NCBI GenBank assembly: GCA_017621225.1
Contig: JAGATN010000008.1
Coordinates: 62,952-126,951 of the forward strand
Direction of reading: 5' to 3'
Source of the DNA: Muribaculaceae bacterium
GTDB taxonomy: Bacteria > Bacteroidota > Bacteroidia > Bacteroidales > Muribaculaceae
Length of the DNA: 64,000 bases
In this document: positions 3,848 to 33,641 of the stretch, piece by piece
Layout of the letters: the number at the start of each line of letters is the position of its first letter
Position numbering within the stretch: position 1 is the first letter of the stretch
Notes under the pieces: generated by a model
The model's database searches: none
Told to the model about the DNA's origin: nothing
The model's input: the letters and a program-made list of their open reading frames with translations, nothing else
Made by a program: the position numbers and the translations under genes

Positions 3848-5017
3848 ATGAAAAAAATCATTCTACTATACTTTTTCACAATAACAGCAGCTCTCGCCAC
3901 ATACGCCACGGCGCAAAAGGTAATAACCGGGGCGGAGCGCACCGACCGATACGTCACGCTTCTCAAGAATAAAAAAATAGCACTGCTGAGCAACCACACC
4001 GGAATGGTCGGCAACGAACATACGCTCGACCTGATGTTGCGGAAAGGGCTCAACGTCACCACGATATTCTCGCCGGAGCATGGATTCAGAGGCAATGCCG
4101 ATGCCGGCGAACACGTTAAAAGCTCGGTCGACCAAAAGACCGGCATACCCATAGCGTCGTTATACGACGGAAAGACACGCATGCCTTCAAAAACGGTGAT
4201 GGACAACATTGACGTGATAGTGACCGACATACAGGACGTGGGGTTGCGTTATTACACCTACTACTGCACGATGATCGACCTTATGAATGCCGCTGCAAAA
4301 TATGGCAAGGAGTTCATGGTGCTCGACCGCCCTAACCCTAACGGCATGACCGTCGACGGCCCGATTCTCGACATGAAATACGCATCGGGCGTGGGCCGGC
4401 TTCCCATTCCCGTTGTGCACGGGATGACTCTTGGCGAACTTGCCCTCATGGCCAACGGCGAAGGATGGCTCAACGGAAAAGCGAAAGTGAAACTCACCGT
4501 GATACCGTGTGACAACTACACCCACTCCACGCGCTATCGCCTCCCCGTGGCTCCGTCGCCCAACCTGCCCGACATGAAGTCGATTTATCTATATCCGTCG
4601 ACCTGCTATTTCGAAGCCACGCCGGTAAGCCTCGGACGCGGCACCGACATGCCGTTTCAAATTTACGGCCACCCCGACATGAAAGGGTGCGATTTCAGCT
4701 TCACGCCCAAAAGTCGTCCGGGCGCTAAGAAGCCTCCGATGATGGATCGTCTGTGCCACGGACGCGACCTGCGCAACCTCACCGAAGAACAGATGATAGC
4801 GCAAGGCATAAACCTCGATTACATCATCGACGCATATCGCAATCTCGGCAGCAAGCCCGGCTTCTTCACGTCGTTTTTCGAACGTCTCATAGGCGTTGAC
4901 TACGTACGGACCATGATAGCCGCCGGCGCATCGGCCTCCGAAATAAAAGCGCGGTGGGCCGACGACGTGGCAAAGTTCAAAACGAAACGCGCACCATACC
5001 TTCTATACGCCGAATAA
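3848..5017 (+). CDS. namZ: DUF1343 / exo-beta-N-acetylmuramidase NamZ family
   Basis: Signal peptide, then LLSNHTG, FSPEHGFRG, DIQDVGLRYYTY, VLDRPNP, HGMTLGELA and PSPNLP motifs. Confidence 0.85.
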   Translation: MKKIILLYFFTITAALATYATAQKVITGAERTDRYVTLLKNKKIALLSNHTGMVGNEHTLDLMLRKGLNVTTIFSPEHGFRGNADAGEHVKSSVDQKTGIPIASLYDGKTRMPSKTVMDNIDVIVTDIQDVGLRYYTYYCTMIDLMNAAAKYGKEFMVLDRPNPNGMTVDGPILDMKYASGVGRLPIPVVHGMTLGELALMANGEGWLNGKAKVKLTVIPCDNYTHSTRYRLPVAPSPNLPDMKSIYLYPSTCYFEATPVSLGRGTDMPFQIYGHPDMKGCDFSFTPKSRPGAKKPPMMDRLCHGRDLRNLTEEQMIAQGINLDYIIDAYRNLGSKPGFFTSFFERLIGVDYVRTMIAAGASASEIKARWADDVAKFKTKRAPYLLYAE

Positions 5018-14480: not shown

Positions 14481-15686
14481 TCAACTGATGGTGCCCCAGG
14501 TAAAGTTGCGATACCGGCGACGGAATCCCTTGATGCGAAGCGCCAAATTGTATAACGGATGCAGCGACACGAACCATGGCACCGTAAGGAGCAACGGTCG
14601 CGAACGCAATGCGCGCGACGTCTTTCGCCACACTATCATAACGGGCAGGCACAATATGCATGCAAGGATGAATACGGCACCCGAAGCCACTACCGACGGC
14701 AGAGTGAGCAACACCGTGGCGACAGAAGCCACAATCCACAACCACCACGCCCATGAAAACGAGGCGAAAAGCCTGAAAGGAGCGCGAGGCAGATAGCCGG
14801 CGGTAAAGTCGCGCCGCATATGGTTTACGCCATGCACGTAAGCCGGAGCCTCGTCGAGAATGTCGACAATGGAGTCGGCCGACAATTCGGCCACGGCATT
14901 GTCGCGACGCGCCACTTCGTTTATAAATATGTCGTCATCGCCATAATTAAGATTGAGCGACCGCGAAAAGCCCTTGTTGTCGAAAAACACGTCGCGGCGG
15001 TAAGCGATGTTGCAGCCGTTTCCGCGAAACGTTTTTCGCGACAGCACCCTCGACAGATAACGCACGGCATCCCATACCGTATCGAATGCCCTGAACCGCT
15101 TGGAGCTATCGTTATCATTGCCGGAGCGCGCCGACGGAGCCGCATAGCCTATCACTATGTCGGTGCTTTCATCGTTAAAATGGCTCATCATATTGCGCAA
15201 CCATTTGTCGGAGCGTATGGCACAGTTGCCGGCAGTGAGAACCACGACATCATTGCAGGCTGCCTTTATGCCGAGGGTTATCGAAAGCTTTTTGCGACTC
15301 AGGTTGCGCGAATCGCCCGGCACGAAAGTGGTGCGCAGACGCGGATACTTGGCCTGAAGCGTCGACAACACATCCTTTGTATCGTCGAACGAATTGTCGT
15401 CAACCACTATCACCTCTATTTCCGACGGATAGTCCTGACCATATATCTTATCCACCAAGTCAGGCAAATTCCAGGCCGATGAACTTGCAGTCACCACTAC
15501 CGAAGCCGGCGGCAGCCACGAAGTGTCGTCAGACGATGCGTTGGCCGACGATGACGCGCGCAACACCTTGAGCAATTGCGGAAGCATGACGCACAGCAAA
15601 TACAATGCGGCCACGAATGCCACGGAAAATGCAATCCACGCTACAAGCGGAAAATCGACAGACAAAAGTACAGGATCAATATTCAT
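14481..15686 (-). CDS. Membrane-bound GT2 glycosyltransferase
   Basis: N-terminal TM; EVIVVDDNSFD, RKKLSITLG, GNGCNIAYRR and GDDDIFIN motifs; C-terminal TMs. Start chosen at MNIDP. Confidence 0.85.
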   Translation of the reverse strand: MNIDPVLLSVDFPLVAWIAFSVAFVAALYLLCVMLPQLLKVLRASSSANASSDDTSWLPPASVVVTASSSAWNLPDLVDKIYGQDYPSEIEVIVVDDNSFDDTKDVLSTLQAKYPRLRTTFVPGDSRNLSRKKLSITLGIKAACNDVVVLTAGNCAIRSDKWLRNMMSHFNDESTDIVIGYAAPSARSGNDNDSSKRFRAFDTVWDAVRYLSRVLSRKTFRGNGCNIAYRRDVFFDNKGFSRSLNLNYGDDDIFINEVARRDNAVAELSADSIVDILDEAPAYVHGVNHMRRDFTAGYLPRAPFRLFASFSWAWWLWIVASVATVLLTLPSVVASGAVFILACILCLPVMIVWRKTSRALRSRPLLLTVPWFVSLHPLYNLALRIKGFRRRYRNFTWGTIS

Positions 15687-15800
15687 AGTACAAAGGTAGC
15701 AATCTCTCATATAATTATCCCCCTAAAATGTGCCAAATTTTCAAAAAAGGTGGTCGGCCGCGCGGCATGCGTCAAACGGCCATGCAAAAAAACAAAATAA

Positions 15801-15962
15801 GTGTATGTTTACCTTTGGCTTATGTTAAGATTTAGAGAGCATTTCAGATTATGTTTGGAGATTGAATGAGGAAGTTATGGGGTACCATAACGACTGAATG
15901 AAATCTACAAACAGAACTGAAAGGCCTCTAAAGTTTTCATAAAGTTGAAAGTAAACATACTC
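15801..15962. repeat. 162-bp palindromic MITE-like element, copy 1
   Basis: Terminal inverted repeat GTGTATGTTTAC / GTAAACATACTC (11/12), TAA on both flanks, internal arms complementary along the whole length. Confidence 0.8.
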
Positions 15963-16028
15963 TAAGATTGCACATGCGAATATATTTTTCTATATTTGCC
16001 TTACCAATTAAAAAGCGCATTAAATATT

Positions 16029-18140
16029 ATGCTAAAACCAAAATTAATATTGCTGACGTTAGTTGCCCTATTAACGACATCAATAGCAAGTTCCCAAGAA
16101 ATCAATTCATTACACGACAGTTTAACCAACGAATTAGAGAAAGCCAAAATTCCGGAAGAACAAATAAAAATATTGTATGACCTGTTTGACATTTCGCTGA
16201 GTCGCGACGAAATGCAGAGCACCGGATTCAAAATATACGACATAGCCCACAAGACCAACAACGTTCCTGTACAGATCGACATATTGAAACAATTGGCCAA
16301 TCTGTATCTGCGCAACGATTCGATATTGGTGGAAATACGGTCGCACATAATGGCCCTGCCCGAATCGGACGACCAGAAAGAAGCACTCGCCTTCGTCAAT
16401 ATCCGAATGGTATTATCGCAATTGTGGTATGCCGACGAGTACACCCGACAGATGCGCCTGTCAAAAATAATCAAGAACTACTCTGACAACAAGCCCACCG
16501 ACATCTACGAGCAGATAGAACGCGTATTCTCAATGCTCATATTTCTCGGCTTTGACACCAACAACGAGCTTACTTCACAAAACATAGTCAAGTTAAAGAT
16601 TTTGATCGACAAGTTGCCCGAAAGGCACTATGCATTGCGCAATATGCTGTATACCATGGCGGCGATAATGTACACTCAAAACGAAAATCCCGAAAAAGCC
16701 GTCGAAGTGGAGCGAAAGCTGCTCAACATTATGTCGTCATTGTCAAAAAAATATAAGCAAGAAGGCCGAAAATACCGTAATTTCGCCGACTCTTATTACA
16801 ACTCATATCGCCGCTTGCTAAGCAACTATCCGGCACTGACATTGGATGAAGTAAACCACTATTACGCTCAGATACTTCGCATGGCAGAAGAATCGCCCCG
16901 AATAAAGCTCAACCTGGAGATAGATCCGCGCCCCAAAGCATATTATCTGCTGGCCCACGAACGATATGACGAAGCCATACCCATGCTCAAAAAAATCAAA
17001 GAAGATCCTCGAAACAGTACGCTCAGACTGCCTTTGCTGAAAGCCATACGGCATGCGGCCGCCCAAATAGGCGACAGCGCCACCATACGCAACTCGGCGA
17101 TGGAATACTGCGATCTTCTCGAAAACTACATTAAATTAAACGCGGCCGACCATTACAAGGAGCTGCAAATACTATACGACCTCGAAAATCTGCGGAGCAA
17201 AAACAACAATCTGGAAATTGAGAAGCGCGAAACGGAAATAGAATTTCACCGAAACTGGATAATAACCGGCATTGGCGCCATAATATTGCTTTTGGCGATA
17301 CTGTTGATTGTGTACAAATCGTACGTCAAGACAAAATCGCTGACCCTCAAACTCGAGAGCTCGAACGAGATGCTACGAAAAGAGCGCGACAACCTGGAAA
17401 AGGCCAAAAAGGAGCTCGTAAAATCTGCCGACCTCGCAATAAACGCCGAGCAACAAAAAAACGATTTCATCAACAACATAAGCCACGAAATAAAGCAACC
17501 ACTCGATGCCATAGTGGAATACTCGCAATTGATAGTCGACAACACCCGCAATGGCAACAAGCATCTCGACAACTTCGCTTCGATGGTGTCGCTGAATTCC
17601 GATCTGCTTATGACGCTCGTAAACGACATTCTCGACACGTCGATGCTCGAAAACGGAAAAATGACCATAAACGTGCGTCCCGCTTCGGTAAACCAAATAT
17701 GCACCATGGCCATCAACTCTACCGCAAAATTGGTAAACAAGAACGTGACGTTGAAATACCTGAACGAGAACGACCCCGACAGGCCGATATTCACCGACCA
17801 GCAACGTGTGGAGCAAGTGTTGCTCAACCTCATAAGCAATGCGGCAAAATTCACGTCAGAAGGAAGCATAACGCTCGAATACGACATTAATACGCTCAAG
17901 CATGAATTGCGATTCATAGTCACCGACACCGGCATCGGAATACCCAAAGGCAAGGAAGAAACCATATTCAAACGCTTTGAAAAGCTCGACCCGTATGCAC
18001 AGGGCACCGGACTTGGCCTGCACATAAGCCGCCTCATAGCGCAGCTACTCGGCGGAAGCATCAGGCTCGACACCACCTATCACTCGGGAGCGCGTTTCAT
18101 ATTCACGATTCCTACCGACCGACGCAATTCGAGCCTTTAA
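16029..18140 (+). CDS. Membrane sensor histidine kinase (HisKA + HATPase_c)
   Basis: Signal peptide, large helical extracytoplasmic domain and TM; H-box ISHEIKQP, N-box NLISNAAKF, DTGIG and GTGLGL. TATATTTG promoter motif at 15991. Confidence 0.9.
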   Translation: MLKPKLILLTLVALLTTSIASSQEINSLHDSLTNELEKAKIPEEQIKILYDLFDISLSRDEMQSTGFKIYDIAHKTNNVPVQIDILKQLANLYLRNDSILVEIRSHIMALPESDDQKEALAFVNIRMVLSQLWYADEYTRQMRLSKIIKNYSDNKPTDIYEQIERVFSMLIFLGFDTNNELTSQNIVKLKILIDKLPERHYALRNMLYTMAAIMYTQNENPEKAVEVERKLLNIMSSLSKKYKQEGRKYRNFADSYYNSYRRLLSNYPALTLDEVNHYYAQILRMAEESPRIKLNLEIDPRPKAYYLLAHERYDEAIPMLKKIKEDPRNSTLRLPLLKAIRHAAAQIGDSATIRNSAMEYCDLLENYIKLNAADHYKELQILYDLENLRSKNNNLEIEKRETEIEFHRNWIITGIGAIILLLAILLIVYKSYVKTKSLTLKLESSNEMLRKERDNLEKAKKELVKSADLAINAEQQKNDFINNISHEIKQPLDAIVEYSQLIVDNTRNGNKHLDNFASMVSLNSDLLMTLVNDILDTSMLENGKMTINVRPASVNQICTMAINSTAKLVNKNVTLKYLNENDPDRPIFTDQQRVEQVLLNLISNAAKFTSEGSITLEYDINTLKHELRFIVTDTGIGIPKGKEETIFKRFEKLDPYAQGTGLGLHISRLIAQLLGGSIRLDTTYHSGARFIFTIPTDRRNSSL

Positions 18141-33479: not shown

Positions 33480-33641
33480 GAAACTGTTTAAATTTATTTG
33501 TCGAAGGAATTGAGAGGATTTGTCAAGTAGATTTTTGATATTTATGAAGGAGCTATGGGGTGCCATAATGACTGAATAAATATCAACAAGATGCTGACAA
33601 AGACCTCAATGACAAGACAAAATAAATTTTTAAACAGTTTC
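33480..33641. repeat. 162-bp palindromic MITE-like element, copy 2
   Basis: Perfect 13-bp terminal inverted repeat GAAACTGTTTAAA, TAA on both flanks, complementary internal arms, apex motif shared with copy 1. Confidence 0.85.

What the first reader, a model, noticed from the sequence alone, without database searches (positions are those of the whole stretch)
15798..15965. 162-bp full-length palindrome with TAA target duplication in a divergent promoter region (element copy 1)
Seen: TAA|GTGTATGTTTAC...GTAAACATACTC|TAA, with paired arms TTATG/CATAA, TTTAGAG/CTCTAAA, TTTCAG/CTGAAA, TGTTTG/CAAACA, AGATT/AATCT and apex GTTATGG-GGTA-CCATAAC. G..C ends with a TWA duplication resemble IS5-family (IS1031-group) ends, which suggests a non-autonomous MITE. 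No transposase is in the window. It sits between the GT2 promoter and the kinase/polysaccharide operon promoter. Its left arm alone contains TACCTTTG (15810-15817), so an invertible-promoter role is an alternative, although no -33 box was found at the usual spacing.
Basis: partly seen in the sequence, partly recalled or inferred. Interest (0 to 1): 0.7.

Follow-up and report, generated by a model that had tools for sequence, protein, structure and literature searches.

The report
Hairpin-shaped MITE in a gut bacterium
The 162-bp palindrome is a real but ordinary miniature transposon (MITE), one of 14 copies in this rodent-gut Paramuribaculum genome. It carries the ends of an IS5-family insertion sequence, and at this site it looks like an old, fixed and now immobile insertion.

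Summary
Window 15801-15962 is a 162-bp imperfect full-length palindrome flanked by TAA/TAA (DNA fold z = -9).

It is a MITE, here called M1:
- There are 14 full-length copies in the 2.5-Mb genome, all intergenic. The consensus ends are GAGTATGTTTAC...GTAAACATACTC.
- The 3-bp T-N-A duplication is perfect in 11 of 14 copies.
- In other Muribaculaceae, 890-893-bp IS5-family elements carry the same 16-18-nt ends and the same TNA duplication. Two of them encode an intact single-ORF transposase (NF033580).
- A related species carries a copy where this genome has no insert.

In this genome M1 looks like a fossil:
- The only intact IS5-type transposase (contig C41) is 73.5% identical to the matching one and has different ends.
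- M1 copies average 92.6% pairwise identity.
- Every copy I examined is present in all four metagenome strains examined.
- The window copy has a mutated terminal base (GTG instead of GAG).

The invertible-promoter idea is not supported.

Extras:
- A sister family (M2, about 32 copies, one in the window) and a third family (M3) share a conserved apex but have different ends.
- The hairpin is kept by compensatory changes across families.
- 14-bp stubs mark deleted copies.

Overall this is a new member of a known kind, of moderate interest.

The parts
15798..15800 (.). Left copy of the 3-bp target-site duplication (TAA)
   Evidence: T-N-A flanks occur in all 14 copies and are identical on both sides in 11 of 14.
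15801..15962 (+). MITE family M1, full-length copy (162 bp). I define 'forward' as the strand that reads GGAGTTATGGGG at the apex.
   Evidence: The other 13 full-length genomic copies are 87-96% identical to it. DNA hairpin z = -9.05. Stop codons in all six frames.
15801..15818 (+). Left terminal inverted repeat (GTGTATGTTTACCTTTGG; consensus GAGTATGTTTACTTTTGG). Position 2 is mutated in this strain.
   Evidence: The consensus first 16 nt are identical to the ends of IS elements L048/L058 in relatives. X16 and X20 read A at 15802.
15945..15962 (+). Right terminal inverted repeat (...AAAGTAAACATACTC)
   Evidence: The consensus last 18 nt are identical to the ends of IS L048/L058.
15845..15860 (+). 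Subterminal direct repeat of the terminus (CAGATTATGTTTGGAG; consensus CAGAGTATGTTTGGAG). Possibly a second transposase-binding site (inferred).
   Evidence: Consensus positions 47-56 equal the terminal 10 nt. The IS elements carry a similar internal motif CAGAGTGTT about 55 nt from their left end.
15874..15891 (+). Apex stem-loop GTTATGG-GGTA-CCATAAC, the core of the block conserved across MITE families M1, M2 and M3
   Evidence: Among M1 elements picked by their ends alone, positions 73-90 are 0.96 conserved against 0.67-0.88 in the mid-arms.
15963..15965 (.). Right copy of the target-site duplication (TAA)
15810..15817 (+). TAnnTTTG box (TACCTTTG) inside the left TIR. It resembles the Bacteroidota -7 promoter element and points toward the kinase gene. 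Function not shown.
   Evidence: The family consensus TACTTTTG also fits the motif.
15850..15857 (+). Second TAnnTTTG box (TATGTTTG), inside the subterminal repeat
15991..15998 (+). TATATTTG, the likely native -7 box of the histidine-kinase operon. It lies outside the MITE, 31 nt upstream of the ATG.
   Evidence: Motif match only; this is inferred.
14481..15710 (-). Glycosyltransferase family 2 gene. Its start is 90 nt from the MITE.
   Evidence: Pfam PF00535, E = 4.6e-12.
16029..18140 (+). Histidine kinase (HisKA + HATPase_c), first gene of a polysaccharide export/polymerase cluster. Its start is 66 nt from the MITE.
   Evidence: An RNA contig spans 15938-16411.
33480..33641 (+). Copy of the sister MITE family M2 (162 bp, ends GAAACTGTTTAAATTT...AAACAGTTTC, TAA/TAA flanks).

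Best explanation
The element is a non-autonomous DNA transposon (MITE, family 'M1') of Muribaculaceae. It has no coding capacity. Its 16-18-bp terminal inverted repeats (consensus GAGTATGTTTACTTTT) are those of a subgroup of 890-893-bp IS5-family insertion sequences whose intact copies encode one transposase (DUF4096 + DDE_Tnp_1, NCBIfam transpos_IS5_3). That transposase, supplied in trans, would bind the ends and insert the element at a T-N-A target (context Y-TNA-R), duplicating 3 bp; this step is inferred from the family. At this site the element landed in the 318-bp spacer between the divergent GT2 gene and the histidine-kinase/polysaccharide operon, a few bases upstream of the kinase gene's presumed promoter. 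In this species it is now most likely an immobile fossil. No cognate transposase is assembled, the copies have diverged, every copy I examined is fixed across strains, and this copy has a mutated terminal base. Any effect on expression of the neighbouring genes is possible but not shown.
For: Shown:
- 14 full-length copies plus fragments in the genome, 87-96% identical to the window copy.
- T-N-A flanks in all copies, identical on both sides in 11 of 14, with Y before and mostly R after. Perfect TTA/TTA or TAA/TAA flanks in 11 of 15 copies fetched from seven other species.
- All 14 copies lie between long ORFs.
- Five IS elements in other Muribaculaceae (L047, L048, L050, L058, L069; 890-893 bp) have ends GAGTnTGTTTACTTTT, identical or nearly so to the M1 ends over 16-20 nt. 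Three have identical T-N-A on both sides; L050 and L058 have TTA/TAA and TAA/TTA.
- L047 and L048 encode intact 260- and 257-aa transposases.
- The related transposase on C41 scores 182.6 bits against NF033580 (cut-off 110) and matches PF13340 and PF01609.
- Empty site: the copy in G061 lies between orthologous genes, and the 165 bp is absent at that place in this genome, C24 about 104.8-105.2 kb.
- The family is widespread and essentially confined to Muribaculaceae. Three MAGs that carry it are titled Lachnoclostridium sp., Bacteroides sp. and Prevotella sp..
- No Rfam family matches.

Evidence for fossil status:
- tblastn finds only one IS5-type transposase gene in the genome, 73.5% identical to the M1-type one. 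Its ends (GAGAGTGTTTGAATTT) match M1 at 11 of 16 positions.
- Mean pairwise identity of M1 copies is 92.6%.
- The window copy and the other M1/M2 copies examined are present in all four metagenome strains examined.
Against: - No empty allele of this particular insertion was found. The flanks have no DNA-level orthologue in 69 other species of the genus.
- The matching autonomous IS is absent from this 94%-complete, 47-contig assembly, so mobilisation in this species is unproven.
- Apart from the terminal 16-20 nt, the element shares nothing with the IS, so it is not a simple deletion derivative.
- The full-length palindrome and apex are conserved more than end recognition alone would require. 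This hints at an additional constraint the plain MITE model does not explain.
Confidence: 0.93

Rival explanations
1. The element is a MITE that has been co-opted here. Its left arm supplies a Bacteroidota-type promoter (TAnnTTTG boxes at 15810 and 15850), or its transcribed hairpin supplies a 5' leader, that now contributes to expression of the histidine-kinase/polysaccharide operon.
For: - Two TAnnTTTG boxes on the strand that reads toward the kinase gene. The family consensus keeps both.
- One metatranscriptome contig (X25, 474 nt) runs from 15938, inside the right arm, to 16411 in the kinase gene. That start lies upstream of the presumed native -7 box at 15991.
- MITE sequence is present in the RNA runs.
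- In 5 of 13 copies with a scorable neighbour, the forward strand points at a gene start 42-94 nt away.
Against: - No TTTG -33 element lies at the usual spacing upstream of either box.
- There is no orientation preference toward gene starts (5 of 13). In tandem-gene contexts M1 tends to be antisense (15 vs 4).
- The RNA contig has no strand, is low depth (3.9), may contain DNA, and may simply begin where the repeat becomes unique.
- A plausible native promoter survives intact downstream of the insert.
Confidence: 0.2
2. The element is an invertible (phase-variable) promoter segment of the kind found upstream of Bacteroidales polysaccharide loci, flipped by a site-specific recombinase.
For: It sits directly upstream of a polysaccharide-related operon. 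It has inverted ends, is about 160 bp long, and has a TAnnTTTG box in one arm only.
Against: - It is a dispersed repeat with 14 copies in unrelated intergenic sites, each flanked by a 3-bp duplication.
- The whole segment is a palindrome, not a promoter bracketed by short inverted repeats.
- Locus-specific contigs in four metagenomes show only the orientation seen in the window, with no opposite-strand joints.
- The ends match IS ends.
Confidence: 0.02
3. The element is a structured-RNA gene or REP/BIME-like hairpin repeat, spread by something other than a DDE transposase (for example a Y1/RAYT enzyme), and its resemblance to IS ends is coincidental.
For: - The hairpin is kept by compensatory changes across families: 28 of 42 pairs show double changes, and 90% of cells form Watson-Crick pairs against 68% in shuffles.
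- The forward strand folds 13-20 kcal/mol better as RNA than the reverse strand in all three families.
- G:T exceeds A:C mismatches, 5.3% vs 0.9%.
- The apex is conserved.
Against: - A 3-bp target duplication and 16-20-nt inverted ends identical to those of IS5-family elements are the signature of DDE transposition. Three separate MITE families each match a different IS subgroup.
- No Rfam hit.
- REP-type elements do not make target duplications (established knowledge of REP/RAYT systems).
Confidence: 0.03

Closest known systems
IS5-family insertion sequences of the IS1031 type (single ORF, about 0.9 kb, 3-bp target)
   Same: The IS elements that share M1's ends are 890-893 bp. The intact ones have one ORF of 257-260 aa with DUF4096 + DDE_Tnp_1 (NF033580), ends beginning GAG, and T-N-A duplications. 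A single ORF and a three-nucleotide target are cited as IS1031-group features in PMC2516522. An 893-bp IS1031-group element occurs in another Bacteroidota member (PMC3196728).
   Different: M1 itself has no transposase and shares only the terminal 16-20 nt with these IS elements. I did not test subgroup placement of the transposases by phylogeny against ISfinder references.
Bacterial MITEs that fold into long hairpins (Correia elements of Neisseria; ERIC, RUP, Nezha and others)
   Same: M1 is small, non-coding, multi-copy and intergenic. It has terminal inverted repeats plus a short target duplication, can fold as a hairpin when transcribed, and contains promoter-like motifs (review PMC10969869).
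   Different: The host phylum and partner IS family differ. Here the entire 162 bp is a palindrome kept by compensatory change, and three sister families share an apex while carrying the ends of three different IS subgroups. No RNase III processing, IHF site or promoter activity has been shown.
Porphyromonas gingivalis MITEs (MITE239, BrickBuilt)
   Same: They are MITEs in the order Bacteroidales and are strictly intergenic (PMC4596501, PMC2575886, PMC10969869).
   Different: I found no sequence relationship. Exact-pattern scans of the genome collection returned only Muribaculaceae and unclassified Bacteroidales MAGs, apart from three MAGs titled Lachnoclostridium sp., Bacteroides sp. and Prevotella sp. 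M1 has no internal minisatellite.
Invertible promoters of Bacteroidales capsular polysaccharide loci
   Same: Position upstream of a polysaccharide-related operon, a size near 160-200 bp, and inverted ends.
   Different: M1 is a dispersed repeat with target duplications, and only one orientation is seen in populations. It works differently and is not a member of this group.

Membership tests
Prokaryotic MITE | Small (under about 500 bp) and without coding capacity | tested here: met
   162 bp, with stop codons in all six frames.
Prokaryotic MITE | Terminal inverted repeats | tested here: met
   Consensus ends GAGTATGTTTAC / GTAAACATACTC are perfectly complementary. The window copy has one mismatch (GTG).
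Prokaryotic MITE | Target-site duplication of fixed length at independent insertions | tested here: met
   3-bp T-N-A, identical on both sides in 11 of 14 copies in this genome and 11 of 15 in relatives.
Prokaryotic MITE | Multiple dispersed copies | tested here: met
   14 full-length copies plus fragments on 11 contigs. Copies occur in at least 9 other species of the genus.
Prokaryotic MITE | Ends shared with an autonomous IS that encodes a transposase | tested here: met
   L047, L048, L050, L058 and L069 have the same 16-20-nt ends. L047 and L048 have intact transposase ORFs. All of these are in other species.
Prokaryotic MITE | Presence/absence polymorphism (empty site) | tested here: inconclusive
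   A cross-species empty site was found (G061 copy vs this genome). No empty allele was found for the window copy or for other copies within the species.
Prokaryotic MITE | Mobilisation in trans by the partner transposase | not testable with these tools
   This needs a transposition assay.
IS5 family, IS1031-type partner | DDE transposase of the IS5 family in the elements with matching ends | tested here: met
   The C41 transposase scores 182.6 bits against NF033580 (cut-off 110) and matches PF13340 and PF01609. The L048 protein is 73.5% identical to it over its full length.
IS5 family, IS1031-type partner | Single ORF, about 0.85-1.05 kb, 3-bp TNA duplication, ends starting GAG | tested here: met
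   890-893 bp. One ORF of 257-260 aa in the intact copies (L047, L048). GAG ends. T-N-A on both sides of all five, identical in three. The feature list comes from PMC2516522 and from my own knowledge of ISfinder.
IS5 family, IS1031-type partner | Phylogenetic placement with IS1031-group reference transposases | not tested
IS5 family, IS1031-type partner | Cognate autonomous copy in the same genome | tested here: not met
   The only IS5-type transposase gene is in C41:1596-2486. Its ends are GAGAGTGTTTGAATTT, matching M1 at 11 of 16 positions. The assembly is 93.8% complete.
Bacteroidales invertible promoter | Both orientations present in a population | tested here: not met
   Four metagenomes give only the window orientation, with no opposite-strand joints. 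Logan contigs drop rare variants, so a minor inverted fraction is not excluded.
Bacteroidales invertible promoter | Unique locus-specific segment bracketed by short inverted repeats | tested here: not met
   It is a dispersed 14-copy repeat and a full-length palindrome.

The most novel reading that the evidence does not exclude
The fold-back shape itself, with its conserved apex hairpin, may be a functional module rather than a by-product. Three Muribaculaceae MITE families keep the same 162-bp length, the same apex and the same asymmetric hairpin through compensatory substitutions, while each carries the ends of a different IS5-family subgroup. This would mean that a snap-back single-stranded DNA (or an RNA of the forward strand) is needed for mobilisation or for some host-level function. 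It would also mean that one hairpin 'chassis' has repeatedly re-tuned its termini to new transposases.
Probability: 0.22. Interest if true: 0.6.

Novelty: new member of a known kind. Interest (0 to 1): 0.35.

Why it matters
Muribaculaceae are dominant, poorly characterised members of the rodent gut microbiota, and I found no paper describing their MITEs.

Practical consequences:
- The M1 and M2 families break short-read assemblies; several contig ends in this genome are M2 copies.
- They sit in promoter regions of surface-polysaccharide genes.
- They give strain- and species-level insertion markers.

Biological interest:
- There is a set of three sister MITE families with a shared covarying hairpin and apex but different ends, each matched to an identifiable IS subgroup. 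This is a clean natural system for asking what, beyond terminal repeats, a MITE needs in order to be mobilised.

For this particular locus the finding is ordinary: an old, fixed insertion with no demonstrated regulatory role.

Tried and rejected
- **Candidate autonomous parent at C30:11516-12931.** An M1 left end and right end lie 1.4 kb apart. The interior is recA, flanked by a solo left end and an internally deleted copy, so this is not an IS.
- **Degenerate DDE_Tnp_1 gene at C45:30474-31353.** I saw no M1-type ends around it, it is disrupted by stop codons, and it was not hit by tblastn with the IS5-type transposases, so it is not the partner.
- **Empty allele of the window copy.** The flanks have no DNA match in 69 other species of the genus. 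All four metagenome strains carry the insert.
- **Polymorphic empty sites at seven other M1/M2 copies within the species.** None was clean. One 165-bp skip with a 3-nt overlap at an M2 copy in X20 had only 24 nt on one side, so I did not count it.
- **Rfam.** Only a sub-threshold miRNA-model hit (25.6 bits against a gathering score of 140).
- **Viral contigs.** No copy of the apex motif.
- **Derivation of the MITE body from the IS by deletion.** There is no similarity beyond the terminal 16-20 nt.
- **Orientation bias toward downstream gene starts.** None (5 of 13).
- **Literature on Muribaculaceae MITEs.** None found. A large census of Bacteroidota MITEs exists, but the text I searched does not name this family.

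Full report
**1. Observation**

The sequence at 15798-15965 reads TAA|GTGTATGTTTAC...GTAAACATACTC|TAA. Folded as single-stranded DNA, the whole 168 nt forms one long imperfect hairpin. Its energy is -35.2 kcal/mol against -11.1 +/- 2.7 for 200 dinucleotide-preserving shuffles (z = -9.05), and no shuffle does as well. The apex GTTATGG-GGTA-CCATAAC lies at 15874-15891 and TACCTTTG at 15810-15817.

- A GT2 glycosyltransferase on the minus strand (14481-15710).
- On the plus strand, a histidine kinase (16029-18140), then a Poly_export/SLBB protein and a Wzy_C protein.

**2. It is a dispersed repeat with target duplications**

A search of the window's own genome (2.53 Mb, 47 contigs, 93.8% complete) finds 14 full-length copies, the other 13 being 87-96% identical to the window copy, plus fragments.
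- Aligned with their flanks, the copies share the boundaries GAGTATGTTTAC...GTAAACATACTC.
- Every copy is flanked by T-N-A on both sides, and the two triplets are identical in 11 of 14.
- The base before the triplet is always C or T. The base after it is mostly A or G.
- All 14 copies lie between long ORFs.
- The element has stop codons in every frame.

The window copy begins GTG instead of GAG. In the more divergent strains in metagenomes X16 and X20, this same copy reads A at 15802. So GTG is a later point mutation in the terminal repeat.

**3. The partner transposase**

The genome has one intact IS5-type transposase gene. It sits inside an 891-bp IS at C41:1596-2486, which has ends GAGAGTGTTTGAATTT and TAA/TTA flanks. 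The 259-aa protein matches DUF4096 and DDE_Tnp_1, and scores 182.6 bits against NCBIfam NF033580 (IS5 family; cut-off 110).

Searching genome collections with this protein returned 57 loci. By their record titles nearly all are Muribaculaceae, Porphyromonadaceae-labelled or unclassified Bacteroidales MAGs and isolates. Among these loci there are three kinds of IS, distinguished by their ends:
- The C41 type.
- A type ending GAGTnTGTTTACTTTT (L047, L048, L050, L058, L069; 890-893 bp).
- A type ending GAAACTGTTTAAATTT (L057; 867 bp).

The second type shares 16-20 terminal nucleotides with the finding's element on both ends and also makes T-N-A duplications. Its intact members encode single ORFs of 257-260 aa. 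The L048 protein is 73.5% identical to the C41 protein. tblastn finds no other copy of such a gene in this genome.

A single ORF, a length of about 0.9 kb and a three-nucleotide target are features cited for the IS1031 group of the IS5 family (PMC2516522; compare the 893-bp ISCaa8 in PMC3196728). I did not test subgroup placement by phylogeny.

Beyond the ends, the MITE shares nothing with the IS.

**4. Mobility**

Copies in seven other species of the genus mostly have perfect TTA/TTA or TAA/TAA flanks.

For the copy in G061, both flanking genes have orthologues in this genome (C24, about 104.8-105.2 kb). The alignment shows the 165 bp as a discrete insertion that this genome lacks, with boundaries within a few bases of the duplicated TAA. 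The family therefore inserts as a unit.

Within this species I found no polymorphism:
- The window copy is present in all four gut metagenomes examined, including the more divergent X16 and X20 strains.
- The same holds for seven further M1/M2 copies examined on two other loci.
- M1 copies average 92.6% pairwise identity.

Together with the missing cognate transposase and the mutated end, this points to an old, fixed and probably immobile insertion. The window flanks have no DNA-level orthologue in 69 other species of the genus, so an empty site for this exact locus could not be obtained.

**5. Rival: invertible promoter**

The locus-specific contigs in four metagenomes show only the orientation seen in the window, with no opposite-strand joints. 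The element is a 14-copy repeat with target duplications, and the whole segment, not just its edges, is palindromic. This reading is not supported.

**6. Possible local effect**

The forward strand has two TAnnTTTG boxes (15810, 15850) that point toward the kinase gene. A third box (15991), outside the element, is the likely native -7 element.

One metatranscriptome contig spans 15938-16411. So RNA, or contaminating DNA, from the right arm is contiguous with the kinase gene. The contig has no strand and only about 4x depth.

Across copies there is no preference for pointing at gene starts (5 of 13 scorable copies). Promoter donation therefore remains a minority possibility.

**7. A MITE superfamily**

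- **M2.** A second family has ends GAAACTGTTTAAATTT, is also 162 bp long with T-N-A flanks (identical on both sides in 14 of 19 paired copies), and has about 32 copies in this genome. These include window 33480-33641 and several contig ends. Its ends match the L057-type IS.
- **M3.** A third family has ends GAGTATGTTTGAATTT or GAGAGTGTTTGAATT, close to the C41-type IS. It occurs in other genomes.
- **Shared apex.** All three families share the apex GAGTTATGGGGnnCCATAAyGACTGAAT. An exact-pattern scan found this in over 100 stretches whose titles are Muribaculaceae or unclassified Bacteroidales MAGs, apart from one MAG titled Lachnoclostridium sp. It is absent from viral contigs.
- **Covariation.** I aligned 105 distinct elements of all families. 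In the 42 consensus base pairs, 90% of cells are Watson-Crick, against 68% in column shuffles and 23-34% with shifted partners. 28 pairs show changes on both sides. The palindrome is thus maintained through compensatory change or arm-to-arm conversion.
- **Caveat on that alignment.** All elements in it were collected through an apex-motif match (exact for the public loci, up to five mismatches otherwise), so the apex pairs themselves are not independent evidence there.
- **Unbiased apex test.** In an M1 set chosen by ends alone (20 representatives under 93% identical), the terminal 27 nt or so on each side and apex positions 73-90 are 0.96-1.00 conserved, against 0.67-0.88 in the mid-arms.
- **Strand asymmetry.** The forward strand folds 13-20 kcal/mol better as RNA than the reverse strand in all three families. 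G:T mismatches outnumber A:C, 5.3% to 0.9%, though these counts rest on few independent events.

These features leave room for a functional role of the fold-back. I rate that at about 0.2.

**8. Traces of loss**

Five exact 14-bp stubs GAGTATGTTTACTC occur in the genome, where 0.02 would be expected by chance. The stub is the first 9 and last 5 nt of M1, joined at a TAC microhomology.
- Each of the five has a triplet on both sides: four have T-N-A on both sides and one has CAA/TAA.
- M2 has the analogous stub GAAACTGTTTC, flanked by TTA/TTA and by TAA/TAA.
- Because the stubs keep parts of both ends, they fit deletion of the hairpin across its base (slippage or microhomology repair) rather than transposase excision. 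This is inferred.

**9. Organism**

- G012:C369 (10,752 bp, M1 copy at 4176-4339) corresponds to NZ_PUED01000090.1 of Paramuribaculum intestinale DSM 100749 (10,752 bp, copy at 4177-4338).
- G042 corresponds to Muribaculaceae Isolate-104.

The genus is therefore Paramuribaculum. The sequencing runs that hold the window include rat and mouse gut metagenomes, along with others labelled only 'gut metagenome' or coded.

**10. Verdict**

It is a new member of a known kind. MITEs are known in Bacteroidales (Porphyromonas; PMC4596501, PMC10969869), and a census lists tens of thousands in Bacteroidota (bioRxiv 10.1101/2024.01.18.576219), but I found no description of this family. Interest is moderate. 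It rests mainly on the superfamily's covarying hairpin and shared apex, not on this locus.

Noticed in passing
G000 contigs C16:39732, C19:2453, C23:34783, C34:13468, C41:3529; M2-type at C3:51772 and C42:16653 (all outside the window): Five exact 14-bp stubs GAGTATGTTTACTC (first 9 + last 5 nt of M1, joined at a TAC microhomology). Four have T-N-A on both sides and one has CAA/TAA; 0.02 would be expected by chance. M2 has the analogous 11-bp stub GAAACTGTTTC. They look like footprints of recurrent deletion of the hairpin body.
   Followed up: partly
window 33480-33641, and about 31 other places in G000 (including ends of contigs C4, C9, C13, C14, C18, C20, C23, C37): Sister MITE family M2: 162 bp, ends GAAACTGTTTAAATTT, T-N-A flanks, mean pairwise identity 95.4%. 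It shares the apex with M1 and appears to break the assembly at several contig ends. Its ends match IS L057 in another genome.
   Followed up: partly
G000 C41:1596-2486: The genome's only intact IS5-family IS: 891 bp, a 259-aa transposase, ends GAGAGTGTTTGAATTT, TAA/TTA flanks. Copies whose transposase is 94% identical are multi-copy in a closed Muribaculaceae chromosome (OX620685.1).
   Followed up: yes
G003 loci L124:1569-1730 and L125:1482-1643; M3 copies such as L133 and L159: MITEs with an M1-like body (about 80% identity) but the ends of the C41-type IS. The same hairpin body occurs with different termini, each matched to a different transposase subgroup.
   Followed up: partly
G000 C30:11518-12931: recA is bracketed by a solo M1 left end and an internally deleted 71-bp M1 copy. 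At first sight this mimics a 1.4-kb element with M1 ends.
   Followed up: yes
G000 C8:90630-90955: An M2 copy and an M1 copy sit back to back, sharing a single TCA triplet between them. This suggests one inserted at the other's duplicated target.
   Followed up: no
G005 contig starts (L034:1-172, L035:1-164): Two contigs begin with the same repeat of at least 160 nt that ends in the M1 left-arm terminus (CTTAACATAAGCCAAAAGTAAACATACTC) but has a different, GC-rich interior. This is an unidentified larger element using M1-type ends.
   Followed up: no
M1, M2 and M3 consensus sequences; window 15801-15962: Strand asymmetry. As RNA, the forward strand folds 13-20 kcal/mol more stably than the reverse strand in all three families, and G:T mismatches exceed A:C by 6 to 1. 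In tandem-gene contexts M1 lies antisense 15 times and sense 4 times (crude ORF calls), whereas M2 shows no bias (14 vs 11).
   Followed up: partly
G000 C45:30474-31353: A degenerate DDE_Tnp_1 transposase gene of a different IS type, interrupted by stop codons.
   Followed up: no
L049:1288-1450: In one relative, the left end of an M1-type IS appears to be replaced by, or fused to, an inverted M1 left arm (CTTAACATAAGCCAAAAGTAAA...). This may be an IS-MITE chimera.
   Followed up: no
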